Below are positions 2,187-32,000 of a stretch of DNA of 32,000 bases, piece by piece. The stretch covers positions 990,001-1,022,000 of the forward strand of contig NC_015931.1 of the NCBI RefSeq assembly GCF_000223395.1, read 5' to 3'. This DNA is from Pyrolobus fumarii 1A (GTDB lineage: Archaea > Thermoproteota > Thermoprotei_A > Sulfolobales > Pyrodictiaceae). Below the pieces are notes generated by a model. That model had not been told where the DNA came from. It ran no database searches and saw only the letters and a program-made list of their open reading frames with translations. The translations under genes were made by a program, and so were the position numbers. Numbering within the stretch: position 1 is the stretch's first letter; the number at the start of each line of letters is the position of its first letter.

Positions 2187-2448
2187 CCGGAAACCAGACT
2201 TAAAGCGTCATCTCGCTATATTGATACCTTAACGAGTACAACGCGATGCAAACATGTAATAATGAGCTTAAGAAATGAAAGTGAAACCACCAATTGAGAC
2301 GTGCTTTAGCTGCTGCTACAACTAGTCCTTTCGCTTTAATTCAGTTCCTATAAACTTTCTAAGCATATACTTAGTTTTTCAATAGCTACTAAACTACCTG
2401 CTAAAACTTAAATAATACATTGTTGATAGTGATATATACATAGGTGTA

Positions 2449-3348
2449 TTGCCCATGTTACAGAGAACTATGATGTTAGCGTTGATTATATTCTTTATGG
2501 CGATCTTTTTCTCCATATTAAGTATCGGTCAGACTCAGTTATTATCTTTCTATAACGTTGTAGGCAATCTAAGGGGCACCTTAAACAAGCACAAAATAAA
2601 TGTGTCATGCAAAACTATAAATGTTTCAAAATACATTAGATATGTGCAAAAAATTGTAACGGACAAATTACACGTTAATATTACTTTGGACAATATACAA
2701 GTTAAGAATTTAGGTATTGTGAATAATAGCAGCAATCTTTGTGAAATGGATACATATGTAGTCGTAAAACCGCTTGGTAAATATGAAATCGTACTTGAGA
2801 TTAATGTAACTGAAGATAATGTAACATCGTATTCAATAGCGTTTAAACCAAATATAACACATCTAGAGAAGATAAGCAAAGAGGTTAACAGTATTTCAAA
2901 AATGGTAAAGAAGCAGCTAATAAATAGTAAATACGTACGCGAACTTCTTCAGAGAATTAATGTATTAAGTTGTATTCCTAAAGATATAAGAAAGCATATA
3001 ACCATAGACGAGATCGTAGATGCCATAATCCACGAAGCGAAGAAAGGTTCAATTAGCTTTAATCTCTTTATGCGTGGTAAGAATGTTGGTTCCGTAGCAT
3101 CATATGCAATAATGACTGTGTTTGAGAAAATTGTAGTAAACGGCAATATCTCTATAATTCCATACTATAAGTATCTTAAACTTCTTAAAACTGGGCATAA
3201 GTATGTATGTAAAGAGGAAATACACTTGCAATTTCCGTTGTACATTAACTCAAGCAGAATAGTTATTGGTTGCCCAGAGGTGGAAAGATTTCCCCTCTGC
3301 ATAGCAAATATAAGATCTAGTCCTCCTGTCATTAAAACTAGGAGGTGA
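2449..3348 (+). CDS. orphan secreted or membrane-anchored glycoprotein (299 aa)
   Basis: It has an N-terminal signal anchor (MMLALIIFFMAIFFSILSIG) and about 10 N-x-S/T sequons (NVS x2, NIT x2, NNS, NSS x2, NVT x2, NIS). The likely start is ATG 2455, preceded by AGGTG. It is a long ORF in an AT-rich, stop-rich context, which supports real coding. I recognise no family. Confidence 0.6.
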   Translation: MPMLQRTMMLALIIFFMAIFFSILSIGQTQLLSFYNVVGNLRGTLNKHKINVSCKTINVSKYIRYVQKIVTDKLHVNITLDNIQVKNLGIVNNSSNLCEMDTYVVVKPLGKYEIVLEINVTEDNVTSYSIAFKPNITHLEKISKEVNSISKMVKKQLINSKYVRELLQRINVLSCIPKDIRKHITIDEIVDAIIHEAKKGSISFNLFMRGKNVGSVASYAIMTVFEKIVVNGNISIIPYYKYLKLLKTGHKYVCKEEIHLQFPLYINSSRIVIGCPEVERFPLCIANIRSSPPVIKTRR

Positions 3349-3378
3349 AAGTATGAGAAAAGAAACATCTTAATACTT

Positions 3379-4158
3379 GTGATCCTTATGTTATTACTTT
3401 GGCCTAGGTACATTTTTAGCGTATATGCAGCACAGTATATTACAGCAAATTGGGCAGGATATGTATTCTACAGTAAATCTGACTCTGGGTACGCGCCGAT
3501 ATACTTAGCGAGCGGCTACAGTATCGTCACACCTGTCTTTCTGCCCAATGTATCAGTTTACCCAGATGCTGGTATTGGAGTATCGGTATGGGTAGGAATA
3601 TCTAATGCCATAGGAGGCTCACAAATTGAGCTTGTGCAAGGCGGCTGGGCAGCATTTTACTTTCCAAATATAAATAATTTTGTGTATTTTACCTGGTACG
3701 AGTTTTATCCTAGTGAGCCCATGATACCAATTAAGTTGGTGACAATCTACGATACAGTATACATGTGGATATATGTATACAAAGATAGTAGTACAGGAGA
3801 AGACAACGGTATGATTTGCATATGGGTTCCGGATTGGTTGTATTCTATATGCAAGTATAAAACATTATCTGTACCATTGCAGGAAATGATATACGCTGAC
3901 TTTATACTTGAAACACCGTATAATTCAACGGCTAGCGATTATATGGTGCTACCAGTTTTCAGCAACTATCGTGGAATAACATTAGGAAACGTTACTGTCA
4001 CCTTCACTAATAGTACAACATTTTACGGCAGTTGGTTTATAGTTAATGACTCTTATCATAGCATAATCCTAGAACAAGGTAACGTGATAAATGCATATGC
4101 AGTATATGAAACAAATTATGAGCGTATAGTTTTCGTGTACGTATCTAGCGAGAGGTAG
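3379..4158 (+). CDS. glutamic peptidase (family G1, eqolisin / Pfam Peptidase_A4) homologue, secreted
   Basis: A signal peptide (ILMLLLWPRYIFSVYA) is followed by G1 signature blocks in the correct order. The blocks are NWAGY, SVWVGI...IELVQGG (catalytic Gln context, Q87), TWYEFYP, ADFILET (catalytic Glu context, E178), LPVF...ITLGNVTVTF and IILEQG...VFVYV. They parallel NWAG / WVGIDG..LQTG / WYEWYP / EWIVED / FG.VTF in scytalidoglutamic peptidase. The alternative start is ATG 3388. Confidence 0.7.
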   Translation: MILMLLLWPRYIFSVYAAQYITANWAGYVFYSKSDSGYAPIYLASGYSIVTPVFLPNVSVYPDAGIGVSVWVGISNAIGGSQIELVQGGWAAFYFPNINNFVYFTWYEFYPSEPMIPIKLVTIYDTVYMWIYVYKDSSTGEDNGMICIWVPDWLYSICKYKTLSVPLQEMIYADFILETPYNSTASDYMVLPVFSNYRGITLGNVTVTFTNSTTFYGSWFIVNDSYHSIILEQGNVINAYAVYETNYERIVFVYVSSER

Positions 4159-4320
4159 AATTGCATTAAGATTTTAAACAGTTGTAAAATAGACCTTGAA
4201 CGAATATAAAAATGCATAATACAAAACACTCTTATTTTTCAAATTGCGTAAATTCGTATGTAGTATTATCTGAGTATATAATTTAATAGTAAAGAACGTT
4301 CGATAAGTTGATTATAAAAG

Positions 4321-5283
4321 GTGATTCGTGTGTTCCTCCTAGGCAGTGAATTGTTAATTTTCTATAACCGATTGTGCCTATGCAGGGTCGTCCTTATGCT
4401 TCTTCGTGTTAATCCTAGTCCCTATACGTTAGCAGGTTTACAAGCGAATCTAGATGAAGCTGTTTTCGTTGTACTTGGTCTACCTTTGGAAGCAACGTCC
4501 ACGCTAAGGCCTGGTTCGAGACTGGCGCCCCTGGCGATACGCGAAGCGTCACTCTACGTTAGCCTATGGTCCGAGCGTGTTGAGAGGAGTGTGGCTCTTG
4601 TACCGGTGCATGACGCTGGCGATGCGGTCATAGAGGCGAGTGTAAGAGACACGTTGGATAGTGTGGCAGAGCTTGTCGAGATGCTAGTGTCGCGGGGGAA
4701 ACGTGTCATTCTCGTTGGAGGCGAGCATACGATAACACTCAGTGTGGTAAAGGCTATGGTTAGGCGGGCGCGCAACCCGCTCCTAATAGTCTTTGACGCG
4801 CACCTAGACATGAGGGAGGTGCATCAAGGGGCTCACTTAGCGCACTCTACAGTGACGTTACGCGCGGCTGAGCAACTTGGAGGACAGAAAGTTGTTGTGA
4901 TTGGCGCGAGAGCCCTATCTGAGCGCGAGTTGGAGAGGGCGAAAAGACTCGGTGTCCGCGTTATACGTGCGAGAGAGTTCGAGATGAGCCATATACAGAG
5001 GCTTGCGAGGGAAGTAGAGAACGTAGATTGGCTTCACATAAGCATTGACATAGACGCTCTGGATCCCATCTTTGCACCCGGCGCTACGACCCCGGAGCCG
5101 GAGGGCCTAACACCAACACAGCTTTACGATGCTATACACGAGCTAGCTGGTAATGCGCGCTTCGCTACACTAGACTTAACCGAGTACACGCCGCTCTACG
5201 ACCCAACAAGGATAACCGCGGTATATGCTGCAAAAGCGGTCATAGAGTATATCGCGGCGCAGGCCAGGACACTCTCTCTATAG
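4321..5283 (+). CDS. speB: agmatinase (arginase/ureohydrolase family)
   Basis: The Mn-binding motifs of the ureohydrolase family are present: GGEHTITL, FDAHLDMRE, SIDIDALDPIFAPGATTPEPEGL. The probable true start is ATG 4396 (MLLRVNPSPY), because the first 25 codons lie in the AT-rich spacer. Confidence 0.85.
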   Translation: MIRVFLLGSELLIFYNRLCLCRVVLMLLRVNPSPYTLAGLQANLDEAVFVVLGLPLEATSTLRPGSRLAPLAIREASLYVSLWSERVERSVALVPVHDAGDAVIEASVRDTLDSVAELVEMLVSRGKRVILVGGEHTITLSVVKAMVRRARNPLLIVFDAHLDMREVHQGAHLAHSTVTLRAAEQLGGQKVVVIGARALSERELERAKRLGVRVIRAREFEMSHIQRLAREVENVDWLHISIDIDALDPIFAPGATTPEPEGLTPTQLYDAIHELAGNARFATLDLTEYTPLYDPTRITAVYAAKAVIEYIAAQARTLSL

Positions 5284-16997: not shown

Positions 16998-17175
16998 CCC
17001 GCCGTAGCTCAGCGGTAGAGCGCCCGGCTGTAGGGGGGAACCCGCATCCCCCTAACCCCCCACGCGCCCAACCGGCGGCGAGAAGCCGCCGGGGATGAGG
17101 GCGCGGCGGCAAAGGGGGATGCGGGGCCGGGCAGAAACCGGGAGGTCCGGGGTTCGAATCCCCGCGGCGGGACCA
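16998..17175 (+). tRNA. tRNA-Tyr (anticodon GUA) with a 103-nt intron at the canonical 37/38 position
   Basis: I folded the cloverleaf by hand. Acceptor CCCGCCG (16998-17004) pairs with CGGCGGG (17165-17171), giving the C1:G72 pair typical of archaeal tRNA-Tyr. The D arm is GCTC-AGCGGTA-GAGC. The anticodon stem is CCCGG (17023-27) with CCGGG (17138-42), and the loop is CT-GTA-G|intron|A. The variable region is AGGTC, the T arm is CGGGG-TTCGAAT-CCCCG, the discriminator is A, and CCA is encoded at 17173-17175. Confidence 0.9.
17034..17136 (+). other. tRNA intron, highly structured and GC-rich
   Basis: It contains three perfect helices: 17041-17052 with 17114-17125 (12 bp), 17062-17068 with 17099-17105 (7 bp), and 17072-17079 with 17085-17092 (8 bp, loop GAGAA). 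A 4-bp helix CUGU/GCAG sits between bulges AGG and AAA, consistent with a bulge-helix-bulge splice motif. Confidence 0.8.
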
Positions 17176-31433: not shown

Positions 31434-31690
31434 CGCGAAGCTCGTCCAAAAGGCCAGGCTCTTCACCCACTCTCAAAACTATCTTTAAATATCCAGGTCT
31501 GTGCCCTACCTTAGCATCTCGTGTTGTACGCAATGCCCACTGTACTAAGAGTGTGTTACATTCCTTCTATAGCTCCACATGGTGTTTTTAGGCTATGCGA
31601 AGAAAACATCACAATTATTCGATTGACGACATTTATTTATATCATGAGTATTTTAAATTACGAAAACGGAATAGTTGAGGGTAATCAATC

Positions 31691-32000
31691 ATGAGTAATG
31701 ATGGTTTTAAATTAACGCGAAGAGAGTTTCTGAAGCTAACCGCTGCGGCCAGTGCTGCTGTATCGGTTGGCGTGGCAGTCCCAAGAATCCCTAGTGTGGC
31801 TGAGCTGGAGAAAGCCGAGTTAGCTGTAGGCGACGGCATGATTCGTGAAGTAACTACAGCGTGCCTCATATGCATGCAAAGGTGTCCCATTGCTGTAGGC
31901 GTTGATAGCGAGGGCAAGATCCGGTACGTGAGATACCTCACAATGGAGGGTTATGACGAGTTCTTTGCGTGTTGTGGTAGGCCGCAGCTCATTTTCGAAC
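31691..32000 (+). CDS. Tat-exported molybdopterin oxidoreductase catalytic subunit, 5' fragment (runs off the window)
   Basis: I translated this by hand from ATG 31691, since it is absent from the ORF track because it has no stop. The product is MSNDGFKLTRREFLKLTAAASAAVSVGV... It has a twin-arginine signal (RREFLK), then an N-terminal Fe-S Cys motif (CLICMQRC...CCGR) typical of DMSO-reductase-family enzymes. There are no stops to position 32000. Confidence 0.7.
   Translation, partial: MSNDGFKLTRREFLKLTAAASAAVSVGVAVPRIPSVAELEKAELAVGDGMIREVTTACLICMQRCPIAVGVDSEGKIRYVRYLTMEGYDEFFACCGRPQLIFE

What the first reader, a model, noticed from the sequence alone, without database searches (positions are those of the whole stretch)
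3379..4158. Glutamic (G1/eqolisin) peptidase homologue without a prosegment in a GC-rich hyperthermophile
The ORF carries the G1 family blocks in order: NWAGY, VWVGI...LVQGG, WYEFYP, FILET and a C-terminal beta-sandwich strand. Gln (Q87) and Glu (E178) sit where the catalytic dyad lies in scytalidoglutamic peptidase (Q53/E136), with similar spacing. G1 peptidases are known mainly from fungi, with few bacterial or archaeal examples, and they are acid proteases made as zymogens. Here the NWAGY block starts only about 5 residues after the predicted signal cleavage site (VYA|AQY), so there is no room for the usual propeptide. This may be a thermostable, possibly non-zymogen glutamic peptidase, or a non-catalytic lectin-like relative, and either would be new biochemistry.
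Basis: partly seen in the sequence, partly recalled or inferred. Interest (0 to 1): 0.7.

Follow-up and report, generated by a model that had tools for sequence, protein, structure and literature searches.

The report
Foreign, propeptide-less glutamic peptidase gene
This unannotated Pyrolobus fumarii gene is a very divergent member of the glutamic (G1/eqolisin) acid-protease family that has no propeptide, arrived by horizontal transfer on a small AT-rich island together with a conserved membrane-anchored partner gene, and has a damaged export signal in this host.

Summary
The ORF is real: window 3379-4158, 259 aa, Pyrfu_1051 of Pyrolobus fumarii 1A, annotated as hypothetical.

**G1 membership.** Four other lines support it:
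- 9 of 10 distant relatives hit Pfam Peptidase_A4.
- My own HMM of 125 canonical G1 proteins scores the ORF at 32.8 bits; the best of 200 shuffles scores 3.1.
- hhalign gives 97.5% probability over the whole mature domain, with Q87=Q53 and E178=E136.
- A confident AlphaFold model (pLDDT 91.8) has aspergilloglutamic peptidase as its only strong PDB match.

**No prosegment.** This is confirmed, and it is shared by a small, rare clade of vent metagenome sequences in which a signal peptide runs straight into NWAGY.

- The gene is 38% GC in a 55% GC genome. It lies on a 2.2-kb foreign island.
- It always follows a same-strand gene for a membrane-anchored protein of unknown fold.
- In P. fumarii the Shine-Dalgarno site, the ATG and the basic start of the signal peptide are one base out of frame with the body. 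Independent assemblies confirm this.

**Verdict.** It is a new variant of a known family. Catalysis is probable but untested, and function in this host is doubtful.

The parts
3379..4158 (+). ORF for a divergent G1/eqolisin (Peptidase_A4) homologue, Pyrfu_1051. It is 259 aa from GTG3379; the GenBank annotation starts at ATG3388. The predicted mature protein is residues 18-259, about 27.6 kDa, pI 4.23, 11% Tyr.
3379..3429 (+). Truncated signal-peptide-like N-terminus MILMLLLWPRYIFSVYA, with a -3/-1 cleavage-like site VYA|AQ. It has an h-region and a c-region but no basic n-region.
   Evidence: Sequence. Homologue N-termini all carry a K/R n-region.
3340..3373 (+). Shine-Dalgarno-like AGGAGGTGA (3340-3348, which contains the TGA stop of the upstream gene), followed by ATG3353 opening a 6-codon mini-ORF (MRKETS*, stop 3371-3373). 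This mini-ORF is in a different frame from the peptidase body. One extra A in the run 3358-3361 would give MRKRNILILVILMLLLWPRYIFSVYA|AQY, a canonical signal peptide.
   Evidence: Identical sequence in two independent read-set assemblies.
3637..3639 (+). Codon CAA for Gln87, aligned to catalytic Gln53 of scytalidoglutamic peptidase.
3910..3912 (+). Codon GAA for Glu178, aligned to catalytic Glu136 of scytalidoglutamic peptidase.
2455..3348 (+). Upstream partner gene Pyrfu_1050 (297 aa from ATG2455; alternative TTG2449). It has an N-terminal transmembrane helix and an ectodomain of about 270 aa with no family match. A gene of this kind precedes the peptidase gene at every related locus for which upstream DNA is available.
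2200..4395 (.). AT-rich island (GC 0.29-0.41 against 0.53-0.60 in the flanks; GC3 0.33-0.37 against 0.52-0.77). It holds only these two genes and lies between rpS2 and an arginase-family gene. No flanking repeats or tRNA were found.
2408..2417 (+). TTAAATAATA, a possible archaeal TATA box about 40 nt upstream of ATG2455. An AGGTG at 2442-2446 could serve as a Shine-Dalgarno site. This is inferred from the sequence only.
   Evidence: reading of the sequence; not tested

Best explanation
**What it is.** Window 3379-4158 encodes a highly divergent member of the glutamic (G1/eqolisin, Pfam Peptidase_A4) peptidase family. It has the two-sheet beta-sandwich of that family. Gln87 and Glu178 occupy the catalytic-dyad positions, and the residues that position the dyad and form the cleft are present: G27, G73, G89, W106, E108 and P111.

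**The clade.** It belongs to a small clade known otherwise only from low-GC archaeal metagenome contigs, at least some from deep-sea vents. One contig is assignable to Ca. Culexmicrobium/Methanomethylicota. In this clade a Sec-type signal peptide is followed directly by the catalytic domain, so there is no prosegment.

**Inferred mechanism.**
1. The pre-protein is exported unfolded.
2. It folds outside the cell.
3. It works as an acid endopeptidase. Glu178 acts as the general acid/base that activates water, and Gln87 stabilises the transition state.

Latency would then not require a zymogen. The enzyme never folds in the cytoplasm, and its activity is gated by low pH.

**Operon.** The gene is the second gene of a conserved two-gene operon. 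The first gene encodes a membrane-anchored protein of unknown fold that may tether, chaperone or restrain the peptidase.

**In P. fumarii.** The pair is a horizontally acquired 2.2-kb AT-rich island. A one-base frame offset separates the Shine-Dalgarno site, the ATG and the basic n-region from the body. Export, and therefore function, in this obligate chemolithoautotroph is doubtful.

**Shown:** homology, fold, residue conservation, absence of a prosegment, foreign composition, conserved gene pair, and the frame offset.
**Inferred:** secretion, catalysis, acid optimum and the role of the partner.
For: **Homology**
- An exhaustive HMMER search finds 13 relatives. Of 10 scanned, 9 hit PF01828 above its gathering score.
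- hhalign of the clade against fungal G1 gives 97.5% probability, E 6.9e-12, over 205 columns. ORF 19-255 aligns with the whole mature fungal domain, with Q87=Q53 and E178=E136.
- An independent G1 HMM scores the ORF at 32.8 bits; shuffles score at most 3.1.
- The clade profile hits only aspergillopepsin II in PDB sequences, E 1.5e-5.

**Fold**
- The AF2 model has pLDDT 91.8 and pTM 0.89.
- The only Foldseek matches with E<=0.001 are 1y43_B and 3trs_D (TM 0.78 and 0.75, probability 1.0). ConA-like lectins rank far lower.

**Conservation**
- Q87, G89, W106, E108 and P111 are invariant across 15 sequences that include SGP; E178 is nearly invariant, with one exception.
- 32 residues are invariant within the clade, including the cleft set.

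**Acid-protein character**
- pI is 4.23, with only 8 Lys+Arg in 242 residues. SGP has pI 4.05.

**No prosegment**
- The distance from the N-terminus to the NW motif is 12-31 residues in the clade as annotated. In the other retrieved G1 proteins it is about 47 or more, typically 55-78.
- Full homologue N-termini read MRKYLLF...ALA|AS..NWAGY, MKVHSW...VAG|RTSYSENGAGY and MDKKRLINYNLK...ILA|AERYSLNWAGF.

**Gene pair**
-.

**Horizontal transfer**
-; the donor type is inferred.

**Frame offset is real**
-, plus 1,753x Illumina coverage used for polishing (PMC3156397).
Against: - The ORF itself gives no Pfam, NCBIfam or PDB sequence hit.
- Two residues treated as hallmarks by PMC6154417 are changed throughout the clade: D43->Ser75 and G44->Asn76. 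The D43A mutant of SGP keeps only about 20% activity.
- No family member without a propeptide has been characterised, and the fungal propeptides of characterised G1 enzymes assist stability and inhibition.
- P. fumarii uses only CO2 as a carbon source and grows at pH 4.0-6.5 (PMC3156397). An extracellular acid protease therefore has no obvious role in this host.
- The 5' frame offset may prevent export.
- The closest relative (L045) is itself broken by two frameshifts.
Confidence: 0.62

Rival explanations
1. The P. fumarii copy is a decaying passenger gene. It descends from a G1 peptidase but does nothing in this host, because the one-base offset removed its translation start and the basic start of its signal peptide. 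Any product is poorly made and not exported.
For: - The Shine-Dalgarno site, ATG3353 and the codons for 'MRK' are out of frame with the body, while 'KRNILILV' continues in frame upstream of GTG3379.
- The offset is confirmed in two independent assemblies.
- There is no SD-like sequence in front of GTG3379 or ATG3388.
- Composition is extremely foreign.
- The host is an obligate autotroph (PMC3156397).
- The closest relative, L045, is frameshifted twice.
Against: - The 259-codon frame is intact in 38% GC DNA, where stop codons are frequent. By my estimate the chance of this is roughly (1-0.066)^259, about 2e-8.
- All clade-invariant residues are retained.
- The mini-ORF stops 5 nt before GTG3379, so termination-reinitiation could still deliver ribosomes.
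- The remaining h- and c-regions might suffice for export.
Confidence: 0.3
2. It is a non-catalytic, lectin-like or binding member of the ConA-like beta-sandwich superfamily. It kept the G1 scaffold but lost peptidase activity.
For: - D43->S and G44->N are changed across the clade.
- Substrate-contacting Asp57 of SGP corresponds to Ala91.
- ConA-like lectins appear among weak fold matches.
- One long-form relative, P0012, has Ser in place of the catalytic Glu, so non-peptidase homologues do exist.
Against: - Q87, E178, G27, G73, G89, W106, E108 and P111 are invariant in the clade at only 27-36% pairwise identity.
- Ser or Gly at position 43 occurs in sequences that PMC6154417 accepts as plausible functional eqolisins.
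- Lectin matches have TM about 0.25-0.4, against 0.78 for the peptidase.
Confidence: 0.1
3. The full-length signal peptide is restored by -1 ribosomal slippage of tRNA-Lys on A-AAA-G (3358-3362). Expression would then be deliberately low or regulated rather than lost.
For: - A P-site slip from AAA (3359-3361) to AAA (3358-3360) re-pairs perfectly and yields MRKRNILILV....
- From my own knowledge, not checked here: programmed -1 frameshifting on an A-rich slippery site is known in one crenarchaeal gene, Saccharolobus solfataricus fucA1.
Against: - The A run is only four bases long.
- There is no canonical X-XXY-YYZ heptamer, and no downstream structure was examined.
- No homologue shows the same arrangement.
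Confidence: 0.05

Closest known systems
Scytalidoglutamic peptidase (SGP, scytalidopepsin B; PDB 1S2B/2IFW), type enzyme of MEROPS G1
   Same: - Same domain from end to end: hhalign aligns ORF 19-255 with the whole mature SGP domain.
- The Gln/Glu dyad positions match.
- The NW.G, WVGI, LQ.G, WYE.YP and FI.E blocks are shared.
- pI is acidic (4.23 against 4.05).
   Different: - About 19% identity.
- No prepro segment of about 54 residues.
- D43->S, G44->N and D57->A.
- None of the SGP disulfides; instead a clade-specific Cys147/Cys158 pair.
- About 36 extra residues in loops.
- 11% Tyr against 2.4%.
- A conserved C-terminal S/T-S-x-R.
Aspergilloglutamic peptidase (AGP, aspergillopepsin II; PDB 1Y43/3TRS)
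   Same: It is the best structural match (TM 0.78 normalised to the target, probability 1.0). It is also the only PDB sequence hit of the clade profile (E 1.5e-5).
   Different: AGP is made as a zymogen. It is processed into light and heavy chains, with removal of a propeptide and an intervening peptide. The ORF has neither segment.
pepG1 of Alicyclobacillus sp. DSM 15716, the only characterised prokaryotic G1 peptidase (PMC3009609)
   Same: It is prokaryotic, Sec-exported, lacks the fungal disulfides, and is thermostable. It has the same dyad and motifs.
   Different: pepG1 has about 27 residues between its signal-peptide cleavage site (about residue 33) and its mature N-terminus (residues 60-62). 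The ORF has none. pepG1 is detected by Pfam; the ORF is not.
Putative archaeal G1 homologues of Caldivirga maquilingensis, Acidilobus saccharovorans and Picrophilus torridus (PMC3009609; PMC6154417)
   Same: They are archaeal, uncharacterised, and conserve the dyad. Their short N-terminal regions are implied by the catalytic Gln lying at residue 92-97 of the precursor.
   Different: - Those are 40-50% identical to pepG1 and are recognised by standard signatures.
- The present clade is far more divergent.
- The present clade is Tyr-rich.
- The present clade has a conserved upstream membrane-protein partner.
- The listed sequences were not in hand, so no direct comparison was made.
Neprosin (MEROPS G3; PMC9343461)
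   Same: It is an acid-active peptidase of the glutamate class, built on a beta-sandwich.
   Different: Neprosin uses two glutamates and is a zymogen with an all-beta pro-domain. The ORF has the Gln/Glu dyad of G1 and no pro-domain. No sequence or fold match to neprosin was seen.

Membership tests
MEROPS G1 / Pfam Peptidase_A4 (PF01828), eqolisins | Direct match of the protein to the curated family model (PF01828, gathering score 22.3 bits) | tested here: not met
   hmmscan returns no family for the ORF, or for its mature part, even at E<=10. NCBIfam also returns nothing.
MEROPS G1 / Pfam Peptidase_A4 (PF01828), eqolisins | Statistically supported homology to family members at profile level | tested here: met
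   - 9 of 10 relatives hit PF01828 at 31.8-71.5 bits.
- hhalign gives 97.5% probability, E 6.9e-12.
- The custom G1 HMM gives 32.8 bits; shuffles score at most 3.1.
- The clade profile hits 1y43_B at E 1.5e-5.
MEROPS G1 / Pfam Peptidase_A4 (PF01828), eqolisins | Fold: beta-sandwich of two antiparallel sheets, as in SGP and AGP | tested here: met
   The AF2 model has pLDDT 91.8 and is almost entirely beta-strand, with one short helix. The top Foldseek matches are 1y43_B and 3trs_D with TM 0.78 and 0.75; the next matches have E>2e-3.
MEROPS G1 / Pfam Peptidase_A4 (PF01828), eqolisins | Catalytic dyad Gln53/Glu136 (SGP numbering) present at the aligned positions | tested here: met
   Q87 and E178 align to Q53 and E136 in MAFFT, hhalign and HMMER alignments. 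Both are invariant in the clade.
MEROPS G1 / Pfam Peptidase_A4 (PF01828), eqolisins | Spatial juxtaposition of the dyad side chains in the cleft | not testable with these tools
   Model coordinates are not exposed, so only the secondary structure is known. Q87 lies in strand 85-95 and E178 ends strand 172-178.
MEROPS G1 / Pfam Peptidase_A4 (PF01828), eqolisins | Other hallmark residues proposed by PMC6154417: G8, G41, D43, G44, I51, G55, W67, E69, P72 | tested here: inconclusive
   - Seven of nine are kept: G27, G73, L85, G89, W106, E108, P111.
- D43->S75 and G44->N76 are changed throughout the clade.
- Ser or Gly at position 43 is judged tolerable in PMC6154417.
- G44 is judged probably required.
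MEROPS G1 / Pfam Peptidase_A4 (PF01828), eqolisins | Synthesis as a prepro-precursor with a basic prosegment that is removed autocatalytically at acid pH | tested here: not met
   Only 6 residues lie between the cleavage-like site and N24. ORF residue 19 aligns with the start of mature SGP. The clade-wide offsets are 12-31 residues as annotated, against about 47 or more, typically 55-78, in other members.
MEROPS G1 / Pfam Peptidase_A4 (PF01828), eqolisins | Acid pH optimum, and insensitivity to pepstatin | not testable with these tools
   This needs biochemistry. The only indirect evidence is pI 4.23 and 3.3% Lys+Arg.
MEROPS G1 / Pfam Peptidase_A4 (PF01828), eqolisins | Secreted: a functional N-terminal signal peptide | tested here: inconclusive
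   The h- and c-regions and a VYA|A site are present. The basic n-region and the SD/ATG are one base out of frame. No signal-peptide predictor was available.

The most novel reading that the evidence does not exclude
In this clade the job of the missing prosegment may be done in trans by the co-transcribed, membrane-anchored upstream protein (Pyrfu_1050 and its counterparts). That job is folding assistance, temporary inhibition and/or tethering at the cell surface. If so, this would be the first glutamic peptidase with a separately encoded 'foldase/inhibitor' partner, analogous to lipase-specific foldases or stand-alone subtilisin-propeptide-like inhibitors.
Probability: 0.15. Interest if true: 0.6.

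Novelty: new variant of a known kind. Interest (0 to 1): 0.42.

Why it matters
- **Annotation.** A 'hypothetical protein' of one of the most heat-tolerant cultured organisms gets a family assignment. This also shows that curated HMM libraries miss a whole archaeal branch of the glutamic peptidases.
- **Enzymology.** The clade offers natural G1 enzymes without a propeptide. It can test whether the propeptide is needed for folding and latency of this fold, or only for passage through the eukaryotic secretory pathway. Members from vent archaea could also be useful acid- and heat-stable proteases.
- **The conserved partner gene.** It gives a concrete, testable lead for a trans-acting maturation or anchoring factor.
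- **P. fumarii itself.** The lesson is more sober. The gene is a recent foreign passenger with a damaged start, so it says more about gene flow among vent archaea than about the physiology of life at 106 deg C.

Tried and rejected
**Direct library searches of the ORF.** All were empty:
- Pfam at E<=10, NCBIfam and PDB sequences.
- PADLOC and PHROGs.

**The word-indexed protein search.** It found only the protein itself. With the clade alignment it found few sequences. With SGP added it returned mainly fungal G1 proteins. These were useful only as MSA depth and as an independent HMM.

**Collection scans for the clade.**
- GTDB genomes: none.
- Viral contigs: none.
- Phages and plasmids: none.
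- Metagenome contigs: only two loci.
- A virus or plasmid origin therefore has no support.

**The idea that the upstream partner is a PepSY-like or propeptide-like domain.** This arose from my reading of the sequences.
- Pfam gives nothing.
- hhalign finds nothing between the long partners, the short partners and the cis N-terminal extensions of long-form G1 proteins.
- Single-sequence AlphaFold of the partner is unusable (pLDDT 41).
- The idea is kept only as the speculative 'novel case'.

**Sequencing error as the cause of the start-frame offset.** Rejected, because two independent assemblies are identical.

**Integration hallmarks of the island.** No significant direct or inverted repeats and no tRNA at its borders.

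**'Empty site' comparison in related genomes.** It failed. The arginase-family neighbour found no close Pyrodictiaceae relative with conserved synteny.
Full report
**1. The observation**

The ORF at 3379..4158 (+) is present: GTG start, 259 aa. It is identical to Pyrfu_1051, a 'hypothetical protein' of Pyrolobus fumarii 1A that is annotated from Met4 as 256 aa.

**2. Is it a G1 peptidase homologue?**

Pfam gives no family for the ORF, or for its mature part, even at E<=10. NCBIfam and a phmmer search of all PDB sequences are also empty. The word-indexed search of 5.8 billion proteins finds only the protein itself.

Five other lines of evidence say the homology is real.

- **Transitive Pfam hits.** An exhaustive HMMER pass over 1.84 billion cluster representatives finds 13 relatives, with E from 8.6e-28 to 1e-3. 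Of 10 scanned, 9 hit Peptidase_A4 (PF01828) above its gathering score.
- **Profile-profile comparison.** I recovered the SGP sequence and verified it as 206/206 identical to PDB 1s2b_A. hhalign of the ORF's clade (A1) against 16 fungal G1 proteins (A3) gives 97.5% probability, E 6.9e-12, over 205 columns. ORF 19-255 is paired with the whole mature SGP domain, with LVQ87GG on ILQ53TG and FILE178T on FIIE136D.
- **Independent HMM.** An HMM I built from 125 canonical G1 proteins, with every clade member excluded, scores the ORF at 32.8 bits. The best of 200 shuffles scores 3.1 bits.
- **PDB sequence search with the clade profile.** It hits a single PDB sequence, the aspergillopepsin II heavy chain, at E 1.5e-5.
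- **Structure.** AlphaFold2 with a 63-sequence alignment gives a confident, almost entirely beta-strand model (pLDDT 91.8, pTM 0.89). Its only Foldseek matches with E<=0.001 in the PDB are aspergilloglutamic peptidase 1y43_B and 3trs_D (TM 0.78 and 0.75, probability 1.0). ConA-like lectins rank far behind.

The homology is therefore solid. The Pfam miss is a sensitivity problem.

**3. Catalytic competence**

Q87, G89, W106, E108 and P111 are invariant across the clade, longer archaeal/bacterial forms and SGP. E178 is missing only in P0012. Within the five full-length clade members, which are 27-36% identical to the ORF, 32 positions are invariant. They include the equivalents of SGP N5, G8, W39, G41, Q53, G55, W67, E69, I134 and E136.

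PMC6154417 proposes a hallmark set. Seven of its nine members are kept. D43 is Ser and G44 is Asn/Arg/Tyr and other residues throughout the clade. That paper regards Ser or Gly at position 43 as tolerable and G44 as probably required.

The mature protein is acidic, with pI 4.23 and 8 Lys+Arg in 242 residues, much like SGP at pI 4.05. I could not measure dyad geometry, because model coordinates are not exposed.

**4. No prosegment**

The cleavage-like site VYA|AQY is 6 residues before N24. Mature SGP starts 4 residues before its equivalent Asn.

The other clade members, once their starts are read from the DNA, have the same architecture:
- MRKYLLFTLIISLIISNFSVALA|ASTTRSLNWAGY (P0003)
- MKVHSWVTLCLLFTLITSPILMVVAG|RTSYSENGAGY (L004, also P0166)
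- MDKKRLINYNLKLTVIILITILAFTIPIILA|AERYSLNWAGF (L008)

Among the 124 of 135 proteins in hand that carry the motif, the distance from the N-terminus to the NW motif is 12-31 residues in the clade as annotated. It is about 47 or more, typically 55-78, in the others.

All characterised G1 enzymes are made with a propeptide:
- The fungal enzymes have a preprosegment of about 55 residues (PMC6154417).
- pepG1 has its mature N-terminus at residue 60-62, after a signal peptide of about 33 residues (PMC3009609).

Table 1 of PMC3009609 lists prokaryotic homologues whose catalytic Gln lies at precursor residue 81-99. Short or absent prosegments are therefore probably not unique to this clade. They have simply never been studied.

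**5.

*(a) Foreign composition.* The gene and the ORF upstream of it form a 2.2-kb island with GC 0.29-0.41. The flanks have GC 0.53-0.60 and the genome has 54.9% GC (PMC3156397). GC3 is 0.33 and 0.37 for the two island genes, against 0.52-0.77 for the neighbouring rpS2, arginase-family, rpoN, rpS9 and rpL13 genes.

Contigs carrying clade members are uniformly low-GC, at 0.28-0.45. One set belongs to Ca. Culexmicrobium/Methanomethylicota. I infer this from the neighbouring FBPase and TIM proteins on the contig: each matches an NCBI-named MAG protein exactly, and the wider clusters carry Culexmicrobium names, including Guaymas ('GB-') MAGs. Horizontal acquisition from a low-GC co-resident archaeon is the simplest reading. 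I found no repeats, tRNA, virus or plasmid link.

*(b) A conserved partner gene.* Every clade locus with upstream DNA has a closely abutting, same-strand ORF with an N-terminal transmembrane helix and no family match. There are two types.
- **Long type, about 300 aa.** It occurs in the window (2455-3348, Pyrfu_1050), in L004/L042 (304 aa) and in L009 (partial). L004 against L009 gives E 2e-4 over 159 collinear residues. The window against L004 gives E 2e-3 over the C-terminal 96 residues.
- **Short type, about 154 aa.** It occurs in L001/L008 and L010, with E 1e-4.
- In the window, the partner's TGA stop lies inside the AGGAGGTGA Shine-Dalgarno site of the peptidase gene.
- I found no detectable similarity between the long type, the short type and the cis N-terminal extensions of 373-416-aa G1 relatives. 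No usable structure model was obtained.

*(c) A damaged start.* The SD site (3340-3348) is followed at ideal spacing by ATG3353. That ATG opens only MRKETS*, in a different frame from the body. In the body's frame, KRNILILV precedes GTG3379 without any start codon. One extra A in the run 3358-3361 would give MRKRNILILVILMLLLWPRYIFSVYA|AQY, a textbook signal peptide like those of the homologues. Two independent read-set assemblies (SRR3923853, SRR064726) are identical to the window here. The reference was also polished at 1,753x Illumina coverage (PMC3156397). The offset is real.

The closest relative is L045, at about 41-44% identity over the full length. It comes from the same metagenome as a Hyperthermus MAG, and it is itself interrupted by two frameshifts.

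**6. Interpretation**

The best-supported account has three parts.
- The ORF is a divergent, propeptide-less branch of the G1 glutamic peptidases. It is probably a secreted acid endopeptidase in its native hosts, encoded in an operon with a membrane-anchored partner.
- A prokaryotic Sec substrate folds only after export. The lack of a zymogen form is therefore mechanistically unproblematic. This step is inference.
- In P. fumarii the cassette is a recent foreign passenger. Its export signal is compromised, and the host is an obligate CO2-fixing chemolithoautotroph that grows at pH 4.0-6.5 (PMC3156397). Function in this host is doubtful.

The rivals are:
- complete loss of function in this host;
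- a non-catalytic, lectin-like role, disfavoured by conservation of the cleft;
- -1 slippage that restores the signal peptide, which is unlikely.

**7. Novelty and score**

Archaeal G1 homologues have been known since 2010 (PMC3009609). No paper in the searchable library mentions Pyrfu_1051 or Pyrfu_1050.

Four things are new:
- the assignment of this protein to the family;
- the recognition of a clade below Pfam's reach with no prosegment;
- the conserved partner gene;
- the horizontal-transfer and frame-offset context.

I rate it as a new variant of a known kind, of moderate interest.

Noticed in passing
window 3340-3381: A strong Shine-Dalgarno site and ATG3353 open only a 6-codon mini-ORF (MRKETS*) that ends 5 nt before GTG3379. 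One extra A would fuse it to the peptidase as a canonical signal peptide. Two independent assemblies have the identical sequence.
   Followed up: yes
window 2200-4395: This is the only strongly AT-rich island in the 32-kb window (GC 0.29-0.41; GC3 0.33-0.37). It sits inside an otherwise conserved ribosomal-protein / RNA-polymerase-subunit neighbourhood: rpS2 ... arginase-family, rpoN, rpS9, rpL13.
   Followed up: yes
window 2455-3348 (+): Pyrfu_1050 has an N-terminal TM helix and an orphan ectodomain. A counterpart gene precedes the peptidase gene at every related locus, as a long type of about 300 aa or a short type of about 154 aa. Its fold and function are unknown.
   Followed up: partly
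window 16998-17172 (+): Rfam reports a tRNA match spanning 175 nt (31.3 bits, just above the gathering score). This suggests a tRNA gene with a long intron. ARAGORN found no tRNA anywhere in the window.
   Followed up: no
L045 1-991: The closest relative of the ORF (about 41-44% identity) is split by two frameshifts. It has Arg where the invariant Gly after the catalytic Gln should be. About 80 nt downstream lies a GC-rich, intron-containing tRNA-like gene (837-951; the Rfam tRNA-clan match covers 893-951). The contig comes from the same metagenome (Ga0232637) as a Hyperthermus sp. MAG.
   Followed up: partly
L042 1-16804: In the 28-kb contig of the nearest intact homologue, the gene pair lies in a variable stretch between Mre11-Rad50 and HerA-NurA. 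The same stretch holds HEPN/nucleotidyltransferase and MazE-like genes, several orphan ORFs and a 1,584-aa orphan protein.
   Followed up: no
P0012 (416 aa), alignment A2: A long-form relative has Ser at the catalytic Glu position (EYITSRP). It is a natural candidate for a non-peptidase homologue.
   Followed up: no
P0009, P0011, P0012, P0014 (373-416 aa), alignment A10: Long-form relatives carry an N-terminal extension of about 130 residues with two conserved cysteines. It has no Pfam match and no similarity to the partner proteins. It may be a different kind of pro-domain.
   Followed up: partly
window 4321-5283 (+): The mechanical ORF of the arginase-family gene starts at GTG4321, inside the AT-rich tract. 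The annotated product (295 aa) starts at ATG4396, which coincides with the return to host GC content.
   Followed up: no
window 31500-32000: GC falls to 0.456 at the very end of the window. Another low-GC segment may begin there.
   Followed up: no
ORF residues 147 and 158; P0002, P0003, P0007: A Cys pair (C-I-W...C) is conserved in the ORF's closest sub-clade. It lies on neighbouring predicted strands (142-149 and 157-162). It is a possible clade-specific disulfide, distinct from the fungal ones.
   Followed up: partly
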